Shown piece after piece: positions 11,641 to 20,526 of a stretch of DNA of 64,000 nt. Source of the stretch: Escherichia phage RB69; sequence record NC_004928.1, one strand, 5' to 3'. Both the position numbers and the translations under genes were made by a program. The notes under the pieces were generated by a model, which saw only the letters and a program-made list of their open reading frames with translations, made no database searches and was not told where the DNA came from. Position 1 is the first letter of the stretch, and the number at the start of each line of letters is the position of its first letter.

Positions 11641-13209
11641 ATGACTACTATCAAAACTAAAGCTCAGCTCGTAGACAAATGGAAAGAACTGCTGGAAGGT
11701 GAAGGCCTGCCGGAAATCGCTAATAGCAAGCAGGCTATTATCGCTAAAATCTTCGAAAACCAGGAAAAAGATTTCGAAGTATCCCCTGAATATAAAGACG
11801 AGAAAATCGCTCAGGCATTTGGTTCTTTCTTGACCGAAGCTGAAATTGGTGGTGACCACGGTTATAATGCTCAGAACATCGCAGCAGGTCAAACCTCTGG
11901 TGCAGTAACCCAGATTGGGCCGGCAGTTATGGGTATGGTTCGTCGTGCTATTCCTAATCTGATCGCTTTTGATATTTGTGGTGTTCAGCCTATGAACAGC
12001 CCTACCGGTCAGGTATTTGCTCTCCGTGCAGTATATGGTAAAGACCCTATCGCTGCTGGCGCTAAAGAAGCTTTCCATCCGATGTATGCTCCGGATGCAA
12101 TGTTCTCTGGTCAGGGCGCTGCTAAGAAATTCCCAGCGCTGGCTGCTAGCACACAAACTAAAGTAGGTGATATCTATACTCACTTCTTCCAGGAAACTGG
12201 TACTGTATATCTGCAAGCTTCTGCTCAAGTAACAATTAGTTCAAGTGCTGATGATGCAGCTAAATTAGATGCAGAAATTATCAAACAAATGGAAGCTGGC
12301 GCACTGGTAGAAATCGCTGAAGGTATGGCTACTTCTATCGCTGAACTTCAGGAAGGCTTCAATGGTTCTACCGACAACCCGTGGAACGAAATGGGCTTCC
12401 GTATCGACAAACAAGTTATTGAAGCTAAATCTCGTCAGCTGAAAGCAGCTTACTCCATCGAATTGGCACAAGACCTCCGTGCAGTACACGGTATGGATGC
12501 TGATGCTGAACTGAGCGGTATTCTTGCTACTGAAATTATGCTGGAAATCAACCGTGAAGTTGTTGACTGGATTAACTACTCCGCTCAGGTTGGTAAATCT
12601 GGTATGACTAATATCGTTGGTTCTAAAGCTGGTGTATTTGACTTCCAAGACCCGATTGATATTCGTGGTGCTCGTTGGGCCGGTGAAAGCTTTAAAGCTC
12701 TGTTGTTCCAGATTGATAAAGAAGCAGTTGAAATTGCTCGTCAAACCGGTCGTGGTGAAGGCAACTTTATTATCGCTTCCCGTAACGTAGTTAACGTACT
12801 GGCATCAGTCGATACTGGTATTTCTTACGCTGCACAGGGTCTGGCTTCTGGTTTTAATACCGACACTACTAAGTCTGTATTTGCCGGTGTACTTGGTGGT
12901 AAATACCGCGTATACATCGACCAGTATGCTAAACAGGATTACTTCACTGTTGGTTATAAAGGCGCTAACGAAATGGATGCAGGTATTTACTACGCTCCTT
13001 ACGTTGCACTTACCCCACTGCGTGGTTCCGATCCTAAGAACTTCCAGCCGGTAATGGGCTTTAAAACTCGTTATGGTATCGGTGTTAACCCGTTTGCTGA
13101 AAGTTCCCTGCAGGCTCCAGGTGCTCGCATCCAGTCCGGTATGCCGTCTATCCTGAACAGCCTTGGTAAGAACGCTTACTTCCGCCGTGTATATGTAAAA
13201 GGCATCTAA
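11641..13209 (+). CDS. 23: Major capsid protein gp23
   Basis: 522 aa; synteny and size as T4 gp23. Confidence 0.97.
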   Translation: MTTIKTKAQLVDKWKELLEGEGLPEIANSKQAIIAKIFENQEKDFEVSPEYKDEKIAQAFGSFLTEAEIGGDHGYNAQNIAAGQTSGAVTQIGPAVMGMVRRAIPNLIAFDICGVQPMNSPTGQVFALRAVYGKDPIAAGAKEAFHPMYAPDAMFSGQGAAKKFPALAASTQTKVGDIYTHFFQETGTVYLQASAQVTISSSADDAAKLDAEIIKQMEAGALVEIAEGMATSIAELQEGFNGSTDNPWNEMGFRIDKQVIEAKSRQLKAAYSIELAQDLRAVHGMDADAELSGILATEIMLEINREVVDWINYSAQVGKSGMTNIVGSKAGVFDFQDPIDIRGARWAGESFKALLFQIDKEAVEIARQTGRGEGNFIIASRNVVNVLASVDTGISYAAQGLASGFNTDTTKSVFAGVLGGKYRVYIDQYAKQDYFTVGYKGANEMDAGIYYAPYVALTPLRGSDPKNFQPVMGFKTRYGIGVNPFAESSLQAPGARIQSGMPSILNSLGKNAYFRRVYVKGI

Positions 13210-13233
13210 TCTTAATTGATTAAATCTTATTTT

Positions 13234-13258
13234 GGGAGACTTCGGTCTCCCATTTTTG
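13234..13258 (+). terminator. Rho-independent terminator after gene 23 (GGGAGAC-UUCG-GUCUCCC plus U-run)
   Basis: Perfect 7-bp stem, ttcg loop, then atttttgg. Confidence 0.8.
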
Positions 13259-13290
13259 GTTTTATTTCTGCGCAATTTCGATGTAAGTTT

Positions 13291-13531
13291 TCAAAATATT
13301 TTGCCAATTAGGCATACCTTCTGAACATATGCCGGAGAACCGTCTTTATTTTTGAATGATGCAAGTTTATCAGTGGCCCAATAACCTTTAGTTCGAGCTT
13401 CAGAATCAACTTTCATCCATACTTTGTTGAAGGCATTACCATTAACTTTTGCACCATATTTTTGTACTTTCGGTTACAGATCCAGCTTCCAGAACTTTTA
13501 CAGTATCTCGTAAGAAACGTGCTTTAGTCAT
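13291..13531 (-). pseudogene. Small early gene between 23 and 24, apparently disrupted by a +1 frameshift (about 79 aa if repaired)
   Basis: SD GGAG plus ATG at 13531; frame 1 MTKARFLRDTVKVLEAGSVTESTKIWCKS-stop; the adjacent frame continues with T4-like codons (VQKYGAKVNGNAFNKVWMKVDSEARTKGYWATDKLASFKNKDGSPAYVQKVCLIGKIF) to a stop at 13291. Confidence 0.45.
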
Positions 13532-13559
13532 TTTGTTTACTCCTCTGCAGCTGATAAGT

Positions 13560-13591
13560 CGATAGTATCACATACCAAATACGTTGTAAAC
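13560..13591 (-). promoter_or_regulatory. Putative sigma70-type early promoter (GTTTAC -35, about 17-nt spacer, TACTAT-like -10) for the small minus-strand gene
   Basis: Read directly on the reverse complement. Confidence 0.4.
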
Positions 13592-13597
13592 AATCTT

Positions 13598-13605
13598 TAT
13601 AAATA
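13598..13605 (+). promoter_or_regulatory. Late promoter TATAAATA upstream of gene 24
   Basis: Exact TATAAATA about 28 nt upstream of the gene 24 ATG. Confidence 0.6.
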
Positions 13606-13632
13606 ATCTATATCACATAAGGGAAAAATGCA

Positions 13633-14916
13633 ATGAGTAAAATCCAAAAATTATCGCGTGAATCTACAACGTCTACCAGCAACTCAATTGGTCGCCCAAA
13701 TCTCGTTGCTTTGACTCGCGCTACGACTAAATTAATATATTCTGACATCGTAGCAACACAAAGAACTAATCAACCTGTTGCTGCTTTTTATGGTATCAAA
13801 TATCTTAACCCAGATAACGAATTCACATTTAAAACTGGTGCTACTTATGCTGGCGAAGCTGGATATGTAGACCGAGAAAAAATTACTGAGCTCACAGAAG
13901 AATCAAAAGCCACACTAAATAAAGGCGATTTTTTCAAATATAATAATATCGTCTATAAAGTGTTAGAAGATACACCATTTGCAGATATTCAAGAAAGTGA
14001 TCTAGAATTAGCTCTTCAGATTGCAGTCGTTCATTTAAAGGTACGGTTGTTTTCAGATGCAGCGGTAACAAGCAAATTTGAAAGCTCTGGTAGCGAAATT
14101 TCTGATGCAAGATTCCAGATTAATAAATGGCAAACTTCAGTCAAATCTCGTAAACTTAAAACCGGCCTCACGGTTGAATTAGCGCAAGATTTGGAAGCGA
14201 ATGGATTTGATGCCCCTAACTTCTTAGAAGATTTGCTTGCAACTGAAATGGCTGATGAAATTAATAAAGATATTCTTCAGTCTTTAATTACTGTATCGAA
14301 ACGTTATAAAGTTACTGGAATTACTGACACCGGATTTATTGACTTGAGCTATGCATCCGCTCCAGAAGCAGGTCGTTCGTTATATCGAATGGTGTGTGAA
14401 ATGGTATCACACATTCAAAAAGAGTCAACTTATACTGCGACGTTTTGTGTAGCTTCAGCTCGTGCAGCTGCTATTCTTGCTGCTTCCGGTTGGTTAAAAC
14501 ATAAACCAGAAGATGATAAGTATCTTTCACAAAATGCTTACGGGTTCTTAGCTAATGGTTTACCGCTTTATTGCGATACTAACAGTCCATTAGATTATGT
14601 GATCGTTGGCGTAGTAGAAAATATCGGTGAAAAAGAAATTGTTGGATCAATTTTCTATGCTCCGTATACAGAAGGTCTCGACTTAGATGACCCGGAACAT
14701 GTTGGTGCATTTAAAGTTGTAGTTGATCCAGAAAGCTTGCAACCGTCTATTGGTTTATTGGTTAGATACGCTTTATCAGCAAATCCTTACACAGTAGCAA
14801 AAGACGAAAAAGAAGCGAGAATAATTGATGGCGGGGACATGGATAAAATGGCAGGACGTTCAGACTTGTCTGTTTTACTCGGTGTTAAATTGCCTAAAAT
14901 TATTATAGATGAATAA
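13633..14916 (+). CDS. 24: Capsid vertex protein gp24
   Basis: 427 aa; near-identical to recalled T4 gp24. Confidence 0.95.
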   Translation: MSKIQKLSRESTTSTSNSIGRPNLVALTRATTKLIYSDIVATQRTNQPVAAFYGIKYLNPDNEFTFKTGATYAGEAGYVDREKITELTEESKATLNKGDFFKYNNIVYKVLEDTPFADIQESDLELALQIAVVHLKVRLFSDAAVTSKFESSGSEISDARFQINKWQTSVKSRKLKTGLTVELAQDLEANGFDAPNFLEDLLATEMADEINKDILQSLITVSKRYKVTGITDTGFIDLSYASAPEAGRSLYRMVCEMVSHIQKESTYTATFCVASARAAAILAASGWLKHKPEDDKYLSQNAYGFLANGLPLYCDTNSPLDYVIVGVVENIGEKEIVGSIFYAPYTEGLDLDDPEHVGAFKVVVDPESLQPSIGLLVRYALSANPYTVAKDEKEARIIDGGDMDKMAGRSDLSVLLGVKLPKIIIDE

Positions 14917-16611: not shown

Positions 16612-18027
16612 TTATGGATATGTATAGATGATACCAGTTTCCAAAGCAGTTTTATGGATGATGTATCCATTACGTGATTCTTGAACATCAACTTCTGGAT
16701 AGTCTTTCATCATCTTCTGAAGAGTGTAACGATGCAGGTAGTATTTACTATCTGGATCTTCAGTTTTCCAATCTTTACCTTCTTCAGTCATTTTTTGGAT
16801 TTCATCCATAACCCACCAACCGCACCAGATGTAAGCTGAAGTACGATGTGGAAGAGGATGAACATAAGGTAGTTCACCTTCTGGCTCAATTGGAGTCTGT
16901 TCAGTAATAACAACTTCAGCGGTTGAACTAATTGTCTTTGAAGTATAGTTATCTTTAGTTAATACTGCTTCAACTTTAATTGTATGAGTACCAGCTGAGG
17001 AGGTATCAATACTGTAAGTATTAGTAGAATTACTTTCTGCTACATTGTCTTTCTTCCAAGAATACACAATATTAGTATCACCTGGAGCACCAGTAACAGA
17101 TGCTGTTAAAGTTGCAGTTCCGCCAACAGTAGTATTAACTGATGGCGGAGATAAAGAAATGGTGGCACTATTAAATGTAGCATTATTAGTTACTACTGTT
17201 GCTTCTGCTGAAATTTCTTTTGTAACATAATTTGTTGCAGAAACAGATACGGTGCATTTAAGAGTTTTACTTCCGACCTCGGTTGGAGTGAATTTATACG
17301 TAGCAGAAGTTGCATCCAGAATATTACTGTCATCCATTGACCATTGGAATGATGTAGTAGCACCTGAAGGTGCACCAGAGACATTTGCAGTTAAAGTAAT
17401 AGGAACACCAAAGACCGTAGTCGGAGACTCAGGCGTAATTTTTAGTGTTGAAGAATTAGCCTTTTTATTTACAGTCAAAGAAACCGCTGATGATTCTACT
17501 GTTTTATCAACGTAATCAGTTGCAGTCACTGTGACAGAACAAGTTATAGACTTAGTTCCTTCAGATGTTGGTGTATATTCAAAGGTTGATTGCTTTTGAC
17601 CATCAACAGCGACCCCGTCAACTTTCCATGTATAAGCAATAGCAGCACCACTAGGTTGATTGCTTACATTAGCAGTGAATGTTGTTGCTGTTCCAATTTC
17701 TACTGCCGCCGGAGAAGCCGGAGTAACAGCGACGGTAGAATTATTTTCTTTCTTATTAACAGTGATAGTTGTTGACGCTTCAGCTATTTCCGGATCTCCT
17801 GCGGAAAGTGTATTGGTTGCAACCACTTTAATTTTTTTTGTTCCTGCCGGAGAAGCAAGAGTATAATCCATTGTAGCAGCCGTAGACTCCTGTGCTATAT
17901 CATCTACAGTCCAGACGTATGTAATAGTACCATCTGGAGTTTCACCTGCAGGTGTAGCAGTGAATGTTTGTGAACCTCCAATAACCCCTGTAGGAGTTAA
18001 AGGAGATAACGTGACAGTGAATGCCAT
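16612..18027 (-). CDS. hoc: Highly immunogenic outer capsid protein Hoc, with four Ig-like repeats
   Basis: 471 aa; C-terminal capsid-binding domain (EPEGELPYVHPLPHR...GIIYTYP) matches recalled T4 Hoc; four tandem Ig-like repeat signatures precede it. Confidence 0.9.
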   Translation of the reverse strand: MAFTVTLSPLTPTGVIGGSQTFTATPAGETPDGTITYVWTVDDIAQESTAATMDYTLASPAGTKKIKVVATNTLSAGDPEIAEASTTITVNKKENNSTVAVTPASPAAVEIGTATTFTANVSNQPSGAAIAYTWKVDGVAVDGQKQSTFEYTPTSEGTKSITCSVTVTATDYVDKTVESSAVSLTVNKKANSSTLKITPESPTTVFGVPITLTANVSGAPSGATTSFQWSMDDSNILDATSATYKFTPTEVGSKTLKCTVSVSATNYVTKEISAEATVVTNNATFNSATISLSPPSVNTTVGGTATLTASVTGAPGDTNIVYSWKKDNVAESNSTNTYSIDTSSAGTHTIKVEAVLTKDNYTSKTISSTAEVVITEQTPIEPEGELPYVHPLPHRTSAYIWCGWWVMDEIQKMTEEGKDWKTEDPDSKYYLHRYTLQKMMKDYPEVDVQESRNGYIIHKTALETGIIYTYP

Positions 18028-18036
18028 AAGTTATCC

Positions 18037-18705
18037 TTATTTTAATGTTACGAAAGAAGAATTACGAGTTTCACGAATTAGAACTGATCCATCGCGATTA
18101 ATATAATAAATTAAGCTAAATAATGTTTGGTGAGCAGAAGCATGCACAAAACTCGTTGGGTGAGATTTCCAATCTGGGGTTTCGGCTATCCATTGATAAA
18201 TCCACCAAGGAACAGTAACATATCCTGGGCCTTTGCCTAATTTAATGAGTGTAGGACTAAAATTTTCAGGCAGAACAAAATTTACTTCTTTATTTACTTC
18301 TGGCTCAGGCTCTTTTTCAGATTCAACAACCTGAGTAATTGCTTCTTCGAATTTATCATGGTCGAATTCTTTTTCTTGTTCGACAACTTCTAATACTTCA
18401 ACTTGTTCTGTTGGAGAATCAAACAACAGAATAGCTTCTTCTTTAACTTCTTCGTTGGTGAAATTAACACCGTCCACATCATCTGCGGCAGTAATTAAAT
18501 CAGTAATAGATAATCCATCAGTTTCAGGTAATGGTTCATCAGCCAGTGCGTTAAGAGCTTCTTCGATATCAATAACAATATTATCGAACGATTTTGTTTT
18601 CTTAACACTAATGCCAAATTGTTCTGCATATTCAAACAGTTTAGCTTTAGCTTCCTTTTTATCAGAAAGAGCACGTAACTCTTCAATATAGTCTTTATCG
18701 ATCAT
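18037..18705 (-). CDS. inh: Inh-like protein (inhibitor of prohead protease)
   Basis: 222 aa acidic protein in the T4 inh position between hoc and uvsW. Confidence 0.7.
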   Translation of the reverse strand: MIDKDYIEELRALSDKKEAKAKLFEYAEQFGISVKKTKSFDNIVIDIEEALNALADEPLPETDGLSITDLITAADDVDGVNFTNEEVKEEAILLFDSPTEQVEVLEVVEQEKEFDHDKFEEAITQVVESEKEPEPEVNKEVNFVLPENFSPTLIKLGKGPGYVTVPWWIYQWIAETPDWKSHPTSFVHASAHQTLFSLIYYINRDGSVLIRETRNSSFVTLK

Positions 18706-18718
18706 GGTATTTCCTCAT

Positions 18719-18726
18719 TATAAATA
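18719..18726 (+). promoter_or_regulatory. Late promoter TATAAATA upstream of uvsW
   Basis: Exact motif about 30 nt upstream of the uvsW ATG. Confidence 0.55.
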
Positions 18727-18755
18727 TAACTATATTTATTACATGGTAATTTGAC

Positions 18756-20270
18756 ATGACTGACATTAAAGTACATTTTTATGATTTTAGTCACGTGCGC
18801 ATTGAATGCGACGAAAGTACGTTTTACGAACTTCGTGACTTTTTTAGCTTTGAAGCTGACGGGTATAAATTTAACCCAAAATATCGCTATGGGCAATGGG
18901 ATGGTAGAATTCGACTTTTAGATTACAATCGTTTGTTACCATATGGACTTGTAGGACAAATAAAAAAGTTCTGTAACAATATGAGTTATTCTGTATGGAT
19001 TGACCCTAAAATCTTTGAGACCGAAGACCTTACCAGGGAAGATTTTGACGCGTGGCTTTCTAAACAAGAAATTTATTCAGGCAACGCCAAAATCGAACCA
19101 CATTGGTATCAAAAAGATGCCGTATATGAAGGTCTGGTTAATCGTCGTCGAATTTTAAACCTTCCGACATCAGCAGGTAAATCACTAATCCAAGCACTTT
19201 TAGCTCGATATTATCTAGAGAACTATGAAGGTAAAATTCTCATTATCGTCCCTACAACAGCATTGACAACCCAAATGGCTAATGATTTTGTTGATTATCG
19301 CTTGTTTAGTCATTCGATGATTAAGAAAATTGGCGGTGGTGCTGATAAAGCGGACAAATCTAAAAACGACGCTCCAATTATTGTTGGCACATGGCAAACG
19401 GTAGTTAAGCAGCCTAAAGAATGGTTCTCTCAGTTCGGTATGATGATGAACGATGAATGCCACTTAGCAACAGGCAAAAGTATTTCTTCAATCATCTCAG
19501 GATTAAATAATTGCATGTTTAAATTCGGTTTATCTGGCTCATTAAGAGACGGAAAAGCCAATGTAATGCAGTACGTAGGTATGTTCGGCGAAATCTTCCG
19601 TCCTGTTAGCACGTCTAAATTAATGGAAGACGGACAGGTAACTGAGCTTAAGATTAATAGTATTTTCCTTCGTTATCCAGACGAATTCGCCACCAAATTA
19701 AAAGGTAAAACATACCAAGAAGAAGTTAAAATTATTACCGGACTAAAACGTCGTACAAAGTGGATTGCTCAACTTTCGGTAAAATTGGCTAAGAAAGACG
19801 AGAACGCCTTTGTAATGTTTAAACACGTTACACACGGTAAAGAAATATTTGAAGCTATTAAAGAGCTTGGATACGAAAAAGTTTATTACGTATCAGGTGA
19901 AGTTGATACTGAAACACGTAACGCTCTTAAAGTCATGGCAGAAAATGGTAAAGGCATTATTATTGTCGCATCATATGGAGTATTCTCTACCGGTATTTCA
20001 GTCAAGAATCTTCATCATGTTATTTTTGCTCATGGTGTTAAATCAAAAATTATCGTACTTCAAACCGTAGGTCGTGTGCTTCGTAAGCACGGTTCTAAAG
20101 CTGTTGCTACAGTTTGGGATCTCATCGATGACGCAGGTGTAAAACCTAAATCATTAAATACTAAAAAGAAGTATACTCATCTTAATTACTTGTTAAAACA
20201 CGGTATTGATCGTATCCAACGTTACGCTGATGAGAAATTTAACTATGTAATGAAAACAATTAATTTATAA
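18756..20270 (+). CDS. uvsW: UvsW helicase (SF2)
   Basis: 504 aa; helicase motifs and extensive identity to recalled T4 UvsW. Confidence 0.95.
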   Translation: MTDIKVHFYDFSHVRIECDESTFYELRDFFSFEADGYKFNPKYRYGQWDGRIRLLDYNRLLPYGLVGQIKKFCNNMSYSVWIDPKIFETEDLTREDFDAWLSKQEIYSGNAKIEPHWYQKDAVYEGLVNRRRILNLPTSAGKSLIQALLARYYLENYEGKILIIVPTTALTTQMANDFVDYRLFSHSMIKKIGGGADKADKSKNDAPIIVGTWQTVVKQPKEWFSQFGMMMNDECHLATGKSISSIISGLNNCMFKFGLSGSLRDGKANVMQYVGMFGEIFRPVSTSKLMEDGQVTELKINSIFLRYPDEFATKLKGKTYQEEVKIITGLKRRTKWIAQLSVKLAKKDENAFVMFKHVTHGKEIFEAIKELGYEKVYYVSGEVDTETRNALKVMAENGKGIIIVASYGVFSTGISVKNLHHVIFAHGVKSKIIVLQTVGRVLRKHGSKAVATVWDLIDDAGVKPKSLNTKKKYTHLNYLLKHGIDRIQRYADEKFNYVMKTINL

Positions 20271-20295: not shown

Positions 20296-20526
20296 ATGGT
20301 ACTTGAATTTAAACAATTTTTATACGAAGCATCTATTGACGAATTCATGGGTAAAATTGCTAGTTGTCATACCTTAGAAGGGCTTGAAGAATTGGAAGCT
20401 TATTATAAGAAACGTATAAAAGAAACGGAATTAAAAGATACAGATGATATTTCTGTCAGGGATGCCTTAGCAGGTAAGCGTGCCGAACTTGAAGGCGACG
20501 ATGAGGATGCGGAAGAAGATTTCTAA
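20296..20526 (+). CDS. uvsW.1: UvsW.1 small acidic protein
   Basis: 76 aa ORF immediately after uvsW, as in T4. Confidence 0.8.
   Translation: MVLEFKQFLYEASIDEFMGKIASCHTLEGLEELEAYYKKRIKETELKDTDDISVRDALAGKRAELEGDDEDAEEDF

What the first reader, a model, noticed from the sequence alone, without database searches (positions are those of the whole stretch)
16612..18027. Hoc carries four Ig-like domains instead of the three I recall for T4
The 471-aa Hoc has four tandem repeats, each with an Ig-like signature (FTATPAGETPDGTITYVWTV; FTANVSNQPSGAAIAYTWKV; LTANVSGAPSGATTSFQWSM; LTASVTGAPGDTNIVYSWKK), before a conserved capsid-binding C-terminus. T4 Hoc is about 376 aa. Domain duplication in the decoration protein may change capsid surface adhesion and matters for phage-display use.
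Basis: partly seen in the sequence, partly recalled or inferred. Interest (0 to 1): 0.45.

Follow-up and report, generated by a model that had tools for sequence, protein, structure and literature searches.

The report
Four-Ig-domain Hoc capsid fibre allele
This T4-like phage encodes a head-decoration protein (Hoc) with four immunoglobulin-like modules where T4 has three, but the same allele is already in about 29 sequenced phages and variable Ig number in Hoc is documented, so it is real but ordinary.

Summary
Window 16612..18027 (minus strand) is an intact 471-aa hoc gene in the T4 gene order gp24 / rnlB / 24.2 / 24.3 / hoc / inh / uvsW. It has four ~95-aa Ig-like modules and then a capsid-binding domain about 97% identical to T4's. 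T4 Hoc is 376 aa with three modules.

The extra module (Dx, residues 189-283) lies between the equivalents of T4 domains 2 and 3. It is an old, diverged paralogue of domain 2 (41% identity, shared Cys), not a recent duplication, and there is no DNA-level repeat.

This is not unusual:
- The same allele, at 95-98% nucleotide identity, is in 27 GenBank phages, in both Mosigvirus (phiC120, O157 typing phages) and Tequatrovirus (DalCa, Bas36 Paracelsus).
- Among the 120 closest protein clusters, Hoc lengths fall into classes of 3, 4 or 5 modules.
- The alleles are mosaics of six interchangeable module types.
- A commoner 472-aa four-Ig class arose separately, by duplication of a T4-type domain 2.
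- Published work reports Hoc proteins with 1 to 10 Ig domains.

The likely effect is a longer acidic capsid fibre with a different adhesin set. That effect is inferred, not tested. Interest is low.

The parts
16612..18027 (-). hoc gene: 471 codons plus the TAA stop at 16612-16614
   Evidence: ORF list. PHROG Hoc-like head decoration, E 1.8e-138. T4 Hoc PDB 5vf3_Z, E 3.7e-142. 98.4% nt identity to the phiC120 'Hoc-like head decoration' gene.
17752..18027 (-). Ig-like module 1 (D1b, residues 1-92), the distal tip of the fibre
   Evidence: Module HMM, E 3.8e-35. 61% identity to T4 domain 1. AF2 beta-sandwich with pLDDT 84-95. It carries E29 and G33, the residues reported as key for MUC2 binding in phiPNJ-6 Hoc (PMC11150434).
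17464..17751 (-). Ig-like module 2 (D2b, residues 93-188)
   Evidence: Module HMM, E 3e-37. 55% identity to T4 domain 2. Pfam PKD 32.1 bits against a cut-off of 23.5. pLDDT 90-96.
17179..17463 (-). The extra Ig-like module (Dx, residues 189-283), absent from T4 Hoc
   Evidence: It falls in the alignment gap against T4. Module HMM, E 3.1e-36. Its nearest relative is D2b at 41% identity, z = 20, with a shared Cys (C258 vs C163). pLDDT 91-96 with seven strands. 29 phage records carry it at >=90% aa identity, none at 60-90%, and the rest are <=46%. dN/dS is 0.20-0.27.
16900..17178 (-). Ig-like module 4 (D3b, residues 284-376), the counterpart of T4 domain 3
   Evidence: Module HMM, E 1.4e-35. 46% identity to T4 domain 3. 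Pfam Ig_3 34.3 bits against a cut-off of 30, and I-set 32 bits against 23.7. D341 corresponds to T4 D246.
16615..16899 (-). C-terminal capsid-binding domain (residues 377-471)
   Evidence: phrog_21694, E 1.3e-41. Nearly identical to T4 residues 282-376. All 16 T4 residues reported to contact gp23 or hold the binding loop are conserved at an offset of +95 (residues from PMC10385173).
16580..16607 (-). Intrinsic terminator just after the hoc stop (AAGGGGC-TTCG-GCCCCTT plus a T-run)
   Evidence: Terminator scan, 7-bp stem with 5 GC pairs. Sequence read directly. A rho-independent terminator is annotated at the same place in phage DalCa.
18034..18038 (-). Shine-Dalgarno AAGGA, 6 nt upstream of the hoc ATG, overlapping the inh stop codon
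   Evidence: Sequence read directly. This is inference from the consensus only.
18037..18705 (-). inh (prohead protease inhibitor), immediately upstream and probably co-transcribed with hoc
   Evidence: ORF list. Annotated as such in phiC120 and T4. Only 9 nt separate inh from hoc.
11641..13209 (+). gp23 major capsid protein, the docking partner of Hoc
   Evidence: 94.6% aa identity to T4 gp23. The Hoc-binding stretch, residues 326-344, is identical to T4.

Best explanation
This is a natural, functional allele of the T4-type capsid decoration protein Hoc with the architecture D1b-D2b-Dx-D3b-Cter.

By homology with T4, the invariant C-terminal domain should dock one monomer at the centre of each gp23 hexamer. 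The four beta-sandwich Ig-like modules would then project as a flexible acidic fibre. That fibre should be about one module longer than T4's 180 A fibre, roughly +40 A. The length estimate is inferred.

The extra module Dx is an old, diverged member of the domain-2 family, not a fresh duplication. The hoc genes of Tequatrovirus and Mosigvirus phages are mosaics of a small set of Ig module types (D1a/b, D2a, D2b, Dx, D3a, D3b). Recombination at conserved module boundaries (the ...SLTVNKK linker and the N-terminal strand of D2-type modules) reassorts, duplicates and deletes these modules, giving 3-, 4- and 5-Ig fibres. Whole alleles also move between genera.

What is shown: gene identity, module count, fold, conservation of the capsid-binding residues, the mosaic distribution, and purifying selection on Dx. 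What is inferred: the fibre length, and that the Dx-D3b module set changes which glycans or surfaces the capsid sticks to.
For: Identity and synteny.

Module count and fold:
- The module HMM finds 4 domains.
- The AF2 model gives pLDDT of about 85-96 across residues 1-376, with four repeats of the same strand pattern.
- The best Foldseek hits are four-Ig fragments (Dscam1 Ig1-4, Sidekick-2 Ig1-4, ICAM-5 D1-D4), probability 1.0, 410-450 aligned columns.

Capsid docking: 16 of 16 contact residues are conserved and gp23 326-344 is identical.

Acidity: pI 4.72, against 4.74 for T4.

The duplication is old:
- Dx vs D2b is 41% identical.
- There is no tandem repeat and no long direct DNA repeat.

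Module classes: length tracks module number exactly. 376 aa gives 3 modules, 468-472 aa gives 4, and 567-570 aa gives 5.

Mosaic architectures in clusters and in sequenced phages:
- D1-D2a-D3a: 79 (78 clusters plus T4 itself)
- D1-D2a-D2a-D3a: 29 clusters
- D1-D2a-D2a-D2a-D3a: 8 clusters
- D1b-D2b-Dx-D3b: the window and P0001
- D1a-D2a-D2b-Dx-D3b: P0002 and phage CCU7
- D2a-Dx-D3b: P0004
- D1b-D2b-D3a: P0009
- D1a-D2a-D2b-D3a: P0013 and phage pEB20

Cross-genus transfer: the flanks of Tequatrovirus DalCa are 96-98.5% identical to T4 but only 73-85% identical to the window, whereas its hoc gene is 96.1% identical to the window's. Tequatroviruses Paracelsus/Bas36 and PYps35T carry the same allele, as does Mosigvirus typing phage 3.

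Selection: dN/dS for Dx is 0.20-0.27.

Against: - No functional data exist for this allele. Fibre length, capsid occupancy and ligand specificity are inferred from T4.
- The AF2 model of the C-terminal domain has low confidence (pLDDT 34-66). This is probably because the alignment is almost invariant there, so the fold of that part rests on sequence identity to the solved T4 domain.
- The dN/dS estimates rest on only 5-13 substitutions per module.
- Recombination at module boundaries is inferred from the mosaic patterns and from overlapping BLAST segments. It was not tested with a formal breakpoint method.
- Only the top 120 of 897 protein clusters were classified.
Confidence: 0.88

Rival explanations
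1. A recent tandem duplication of one Ig domain occurred within this phage's own lineage. This is the simplest reading of the first reader's 'domain duplication'.
For: The modules are head-to-tail with an exact 95-aa period. Recent duplications of this kind do occur in hoc: the common 472-aa class has two D2a copies that are 78-85% identical.
Against: Dx is only 41% identical to D2b and 33-35% identical to the other modules. TRF finds no tandem repeat, and the longest direct DNA repeats are 15-30 nt at 62-82% identity. The same Dx module, at >=90% identity, is present in 29 phage records of two genera and in three different architectures.
Confidence: 0.03
2. An assembly or sequencing artefact, in which a repeat was mis-assembled so that a three-Ig hoc looks like four.
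For: Repetitive genes can be mis-assembled. Several related records do have broken hoc reading frames (a20, OLB35, NRG-P0074).
Against: The extra module has a unique sequence and is not a copy of a neighbour. The ORF is intact. 27 independent genome records contain the full 1416-bp gene at 95-98% identity. One protein cluster of 54 member sequences has the same 471-aa length.
Confidence: 0.01
3. Dx was captured from outside the Hoc family, for example from a bacterial PKD/Big surface protein or another phage Ig-like decoration or tail protein. On this reading it is not a domain-2 paralogue.
For: Ig-like domains are promiscuously exchanged among phage structural proteins (Fraser et al. 2006, as cited in PMC10385173). 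Dx is nearly as distant from D2 (40-41%) as the other module families are from each other (26-39%). The weak PHROG hits to residues 164-281 include a tail protein family.
Against: All tblastn hits to Dx in 50,697 phage records lie in hoc genes, and the best hits outside the Dx class are Hoc D2-type modules at 38-46%. Dx shares the D2-specific Cys, the KxxxC.V.V.ATxY strand and the linker. The z-score against D2 is 19-20, against 9-16 for D1 and D3.
Confidence: 0.05
4. The extra module is functionally neutral baggage. It acts as a spacer with no binding role, tolerated because Hoc is dispensable.
For: Hoc is non-essential in the laboratory (PMC10385173). Several relatives have frameshifted hoc genes. 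In phiPNJ-6, MUC2 binding mapped to domain 1 only (PMC11150434).
Against: dN/dS is 0.2-0.27 and the ORF is intact across two genera. The predicted fold has high confidence. T4 and RB49 domains 2 and 3 are reported to bind E. coli surfaces (PMC10385173). A spacer role would still change how far domain 1 reaches.
Confidence: 0.2

Closest known systems
Hoc of Escherichia phage phiC120 (YP_010090019.1), and the identical-architecture Hocs of O157 typing phages 3/6/13, Shigella phage ESh27, DalCa, Paracelsus (Bas36) and PYps35T
   Same: 471 aa, with the same D1b-D2b-Dx-D3b-Cter architecture and the same genomic position. Nucleotide identity is 95.3-98.4% and protein identity about 98%.
   Different: Only point substitutions. 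The window's own sequence is not in the collection at 100% identity.
T4 Hoc (NP_049793.1; PDB 5vf3, 8t1x; 376 aa)
   Same: The same family and synteny. [quoted passage not shown] Both are acidic. Domains 1, 2 and 3 have counterparts at 61%, 55% and 46% identity.
   Different: T4 has three Ig modules. The window adds Dx between the counterparts of domains 2 and 3, and its other modules belong to different sequence types (b rather than a).
The common 472-aa four-Ig Hoc class (e.g. phages vB_EcoM_G10400, BF15, ESh33; clusters P0014-P0042)
   Same: Also four Ig modules plus the same C-terminal domain.
   Different: The route to four modules differs. That class is D1a-D2a-D2a'-D3a, with two D2a copies 78-85% identical, and it is only about 59% identical to the window's Hoc overall.
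Five-Ig Hocs (CCU7 / P0002, 567 aa; UGKSEcP1 / P0003, 568 aa) and the 10-Ig Hoc of Serratia phage Muldoon
   Same: A string of Ig modules on the same C-terminal anchor. CCU7 contains the window's D2b-Dx-D3b block at 95-98% identity (PMC10385173).
   Different: They have one or more additional modules. CCU7 has T4-type D1a-D2a in front of the block.
RB49 Hoc N-terminal domains (PDB 3shs)
   Different: It has three Ig modules and about 21% identity.

Membership tests
Hoc (highly immunogenic outer capsid protein) of T4-like phages | A C-terminal capsid-binding domain homologous to T4 Hoc residues 281-376, including the ESRNG loop and the aromatic contact residues | tested here: met
   phrog_21694, E 1.3e-41. 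PDB 5vf3_Z domain 2, 289.9 bits. 16 of 16 listed residues are conserved, with ESRNG at 450-454.
Hoc (highly immunogenic outer capsid protein) of T4-like phages | An N-terminal string of Ig-like domains joined by short linkers | tested here: met
Hoc (highly immunogenic outer capsid protein) of T4-like phages | Conserved gene position between inh and gene 24.3, near genes 23 and 24 | tested here: met
   Window ORF order compared with the T4 and phiC120 annotation.
Hoc (highly immunogenic outer capsid protein) of T4-like phages | Acidic protein, pI about 4-5 | tested here: met
   pI 4.72, against 4.74 for T4. The criterion comes from PMC10385173.
Hoc (highly immunogenic outer capsid protein) of T4-like phages | Binds as a monomer at the centre of gp23 hexamers (155 copies per prolate head) and is dispensable for growth | not testable with these tools
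   Indirect support only: the gp23 binding stretch 326-344 is identical to T4.
Recent in-situ tandem domain duplication | Adjacent copies with high DNA and protein identity, detectable as a tandem repeat | tested here: not met
   TRF gives 0 rows. There are no long direct repeats. Dx vs D2b is 41% identical at the aa level.
Domain-2 family of Hoc Ig modules (as the origin of Dx) | Closer to D2-type modules than to D1 or D3 types, with the shared D2-specific Cys and linker | tested here: met
   Identity to D2b and D2a is 41% and 37%, with z of 20 and 19, against 29-35% and z of 9-16 for the others. The cluster means agree. Cys258 aligns with Cys163. The margin is modest.

The most novel reading that the evidence does not exclude
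hoc in Tequatrovirus and Mosigvirus phages behaves as a cassette-shuffling locus. A small library of Ig module types is reassorted, duplicated and deleted by recombination at conserved linkers, and whole alleles are exchanged between genera. Within this, the always-linked Dx-D3b pair carried by this phage would be a distinct adhesion specificity, for example for a different mucin glycan or bacterial surface, selected in particular niches such as the O157-associated or animal gut. The mosaic pattern is shown here. No systematic description of it was found in the papers searched. The niche-specific function is speculative.
Probability: 0.3. Interest if true: 0.4.

Novelty: already known. Interest (0 to 1): 0.15.

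Why it matters
The value is mostly practical.
- Anyone using this phage or its relatives (including BASEL phage Bas36) for Hoc display or mucus-adherence work should know that the fibre has four Ig modules of non-T4 sequence types. T4-based domain numbering, antibodies and binding data (D246N, or E29/G33 in phiPNJ-6) do not transfer directly.
- N-terminal fusions would sit about one module further from the capsid.
- On the evolutionary side, the mosaic of module types and the cross-genus sharing of the allele show that hoc is a recombination hotspot under diversifying pressure on the Ig part and strong conservation of the anchor. This fits the published view of Hoc as an adaptable adhesin.
- It does not open a new question.

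Tried and rejected
- DNA-level repeat searches (TRF; the repeat finder) found nothing beyond short weak matches. This rules out a recent duplication.
- A second large protein search with the Dx-D3b pair alone returned only one 151-aa fragment and did not even recover the full-length Hocs. The word-index prefilter evidently failed on this query. It therefore says nothing about the origin of Dx, and I did not spend the third search.
- NCBIfam gave no hit above cut-off (ZirU family, 20 bits against a cut-off of 100).
- The paper search 'phiC120'/'Hoc' was swamped by unrelated 'hoc'/'hock' hits. The search for Hoc + T4-like + Ig-like + duplication gave three papers, none of which describes module shuffling.
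- The exact late-promoter motif TATAAATA is not present on the minus strand directly upstream of hoc or inh. There is only AATAAATA about 28 nt before the inh ATG, so the promoter is not assigned.
- I considered predicting Dx alone. I judged it unnecessary because pLDDT is 91-96 in the full-length model.

Full report
**Observation.** The ORF at window 16612..18027 is on the minus strand, starts with ATG and encodes 471 aa. Its neighbours are gp24 (13633..14916, +), rnlB, two small ORFs equivalent to 24.2 and 24.3, then hoc, inh (18037..18705, -) and uvsW (18756..20270, +). This is the T4 order. T4 Hoc in RefSeq and in PDB entry 5vf3 is 376 aa.

**Identity.**
- PHROGs gives 'Hoc-like head decoration', E 1.8e-138.
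- The PDB sequence search gives T4 Hoc at E 3.7e-142, in two stretches. Window 1-190 matches T4 1-190 and window 289-471 matches T4 194-376.
- A global alignment shows a single 95-aa insertion relative to T4.
- The C-terminal domain is nearly identical to T4's.
- All 16 residues that Fokine et al. (PMC10385173) list as contacting gp23 or holding the ESRNG loop are conserved at an offset of +95. The gp23 stretch 326-344 that Hoc binds is identical in the window's gp23 (11641..13209).
- The protein is acidic, with pI 4.72 and a mass of 50.0 kDa, against 4.74 and 40.4 kDa for T4.
- A strong intrinsic terminator follows the stop codon.

**Domain count and fold.**
- An HMM built from the seven window and T4 modules finds four domains in the window protein, at 1-92, 93-188, 189-283 and 284-376, each with E of about 1e-35. 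It finds three in T4.
- Pfam Ig_3, I-set, PKD, PKD_3 and Ig_2 all score above their gathering thresholds.
- An AlphaFold2 model from an 86-sequence alignment has pLDDT of about 85-96 over residues 1-376, with four repeats of the same seven-strand pattern. The C-terminal domain is poorly modelled, with pLDDT 34-66, presumably because the alignment is invariant there.
- The best Foldseek hits against the PDB are four-Ig fragments: Dscam1 Ig1-4, Sidekick-2 Ig1-4 and ICAM-5 D1-D4. Probability is 1.0 with 410-450 aligned columns.

**What the extra module is.**
- Pairwise comparison shows that the inserted module (Dx, 189-283) is closest to domain-2-type modules. It is 41% identical to the window's D2b (z 20) and 37% identical to T4 D2 (z 19). 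Against D1 and D3 types the figures are 29-35% and z 9-16.
- Dx shares the D2-specific cysteine, Cys258 aligned with Cys163.
- There is no tandem repeat and no long direct repeat at the DNA level.
- So Dx is an old, diverged paralogue, not a recent in-situ duplication.
- dN/dS for Dx against three relatives is 0.20-0.27, which indicates constraint, although only a few substitutions are counted.

**How common it is.**
- Megablast of the gene against 50,697 phage records finds 653 records that match the conserved 3' end. Of these, 29 match >=80% of the gene and 27 match its full length, at 95.3-98.4% identity. The best is phiC120. The others include O157 typing phages 3, 6 and 13, ESh27, DalCa, Paracelsus/Bas36 and PYps35T.
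- tblastn with Dx alone finds 29 records at >=90% identity, none at 60-90%, and all the rest at <=46%. The remaining hits are Hoc D2 modules.
- In the 5.8-billion-protein collection, the top 120 clusters fall into sharp length classes: 376 aa, 468-472 aa and 567-570 aa. These correspond exactly to 3, 4 and 5 modules.

**Mosaic architecture.** Clustering 416 modules gives six types: D1, D2a, D2b, Dx, D3a and D3b. The architectures found in clusters and in sequenced phages are these:

| Architecture | Where found |
|---|---|
| D1-D2a-D3a (T4 type) | 79 (78 clusters plus T4 itself) |
| D1-D2a-D2a-D3a | 29 clusters |
| D1-D2a-D2a-D2a-D3a | 8 clusters |
| D1b-D2b-Dx-D3b | window and P0001 (54 members) |
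| D1a-D2a-D2b-Dx-D3b | P0002 and phage CCU7 |
| D2a-Dx-D3b | P0004 |
| D1b-D2b-D3a | P0009 |
| D1a-D2a-D2b-D3a | P0013 and phage pEB20 |

- The common 472-aa four-Ig class has two D2a copies that are 78-85% identical. That is an independent and younger route to four modules.
- The junctions after D2-type modules share the ...SLTVNKK linker.
- BLAST of the window against CCU7 shows the junction segment matching two places in the CCU7 gene. This is consistent with recombination at module boundaries, which is inferred rather than formally tested.

**Exchange between genera.**
- The window's closest genomes (98.0-96.6% identity over 25 kb) are classified as Mosigvirus.
- Tequatrovirus DalCa has flanks 96-98.5% identical to T4 and only 73-85% identical to the window. 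Its hoc is nevertheless 96.1% identical to the window's.
- Tequatroviruses Paracelsus (Bas36) and PYps35T carry the same allele.
- The whole allele has therefore moved horizontally.

**Literature.** Fokine et al. 2023 (PMC10385173) describe T4 Hoc as three Ig-like domains plus a C-terminal capsid-binding domain. They report 650 homologues with strings of Ig domains that vary in number, from one (phage PG7) to ten (phage Muldoon). The phiPNJ-6 study (PMC11150434) states that T4-like phages differ in the number and arrangement of Hoc domains, and it maps MUC2/fucose binding to E29 and G33 of domain 1. The window's D1b has E29 and G33. No paper describing the specific module shuffling was found.

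**Mechanism.** By homology with T4, one monomer docks through the C-terminal domain at each gp23 hexamer centre, and the Ig string projects outward. The docking residues are shown to be conserved. One more module should lengthen the 180 A fibre by roughly 40 A and add another potential binding surface, which is inferred. Whether Dx binds anything, or only spaces domain 1 further out, is unknown.

**Verdict.** Interest is low. The modest added value is the explicit module map, the two independent routes to four-Ig fibres, and the cross-genus sharing of this allele.

Noticed in passing
window 13210-13632 and 18706-18755: T4 carries the homing endonuclease genes segD (between genes 23 and 24) and segE (between inh and uvsW). 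The window has neither. inh and uvsW are only about 50 nt apart.
   Followed up: partly
window 18756-20270 and 20296-20526: UvsW is a 504-aa ORF followed by a separate 76-aa ORF (UvsW.1-like). The T4 RefSeq record annotates one 1764-bp uvsW and carries a note about sequence discrepancies.
   Followed up: no
whole window: The T4 late-promoter motif TATAAATA occurs 19 times, against 6.7 expected and a maximum of 16 in shuffles. Most copies sit just upstream of structural genes on the + strand. No exact copy lies upstream of inh or hoc on the minus strand, only AATAAATA at about 18733-18740.
   Followed up: partly
L006 1420-2835 (phage a20), L003 1501-2631 (phage OLB35), and NRG-P0074 (H17): Several close relatives have hoc split by frameshifts or stops. 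OLB35 hoc also looks like a chimera of D1b, D1a, D2a and D3b pieces. These are either sequencing errors or real decay of a dispensable gene.
   Followed up: partly
P0004 (379 aa, from a 3.3-kb metagenomic contig): A three-Ig derivative, D2a-Dx-D3b, in which the first nine residues of D1 (MAFTVDITP) are fused directly to a D2a module. It looks like an internal deletion by recombination between the N-terminal strands of D1 and D2.
   Followed up: partly
window 17929-17943 (Hoc residues 29-33): D1b reads E29-T-P-D-G33. E29 and G33 are the residues reported as essential for MUC2/fucose binding in phiPNJ-6 Hoc, whereas T4 has Q29 (PMC11150434).
   Followed up: no
whole window: No tRNA genes and no Rfam family reach threshold in the 64 kb. 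The nearest genomes are classified as Mosigvirus, not Tequatrovirus, so T4 is a cross-genus comparator.
   Followed up: yes
(tool behaviour): The word-indexed protein search with the 188-aa Dx-D3b query returned 471 candidates and a single hit, missing the full-length Hocs found. Negative results from that tool on short, T/S/V-rich queries should not be trusted.
   Followed up: no
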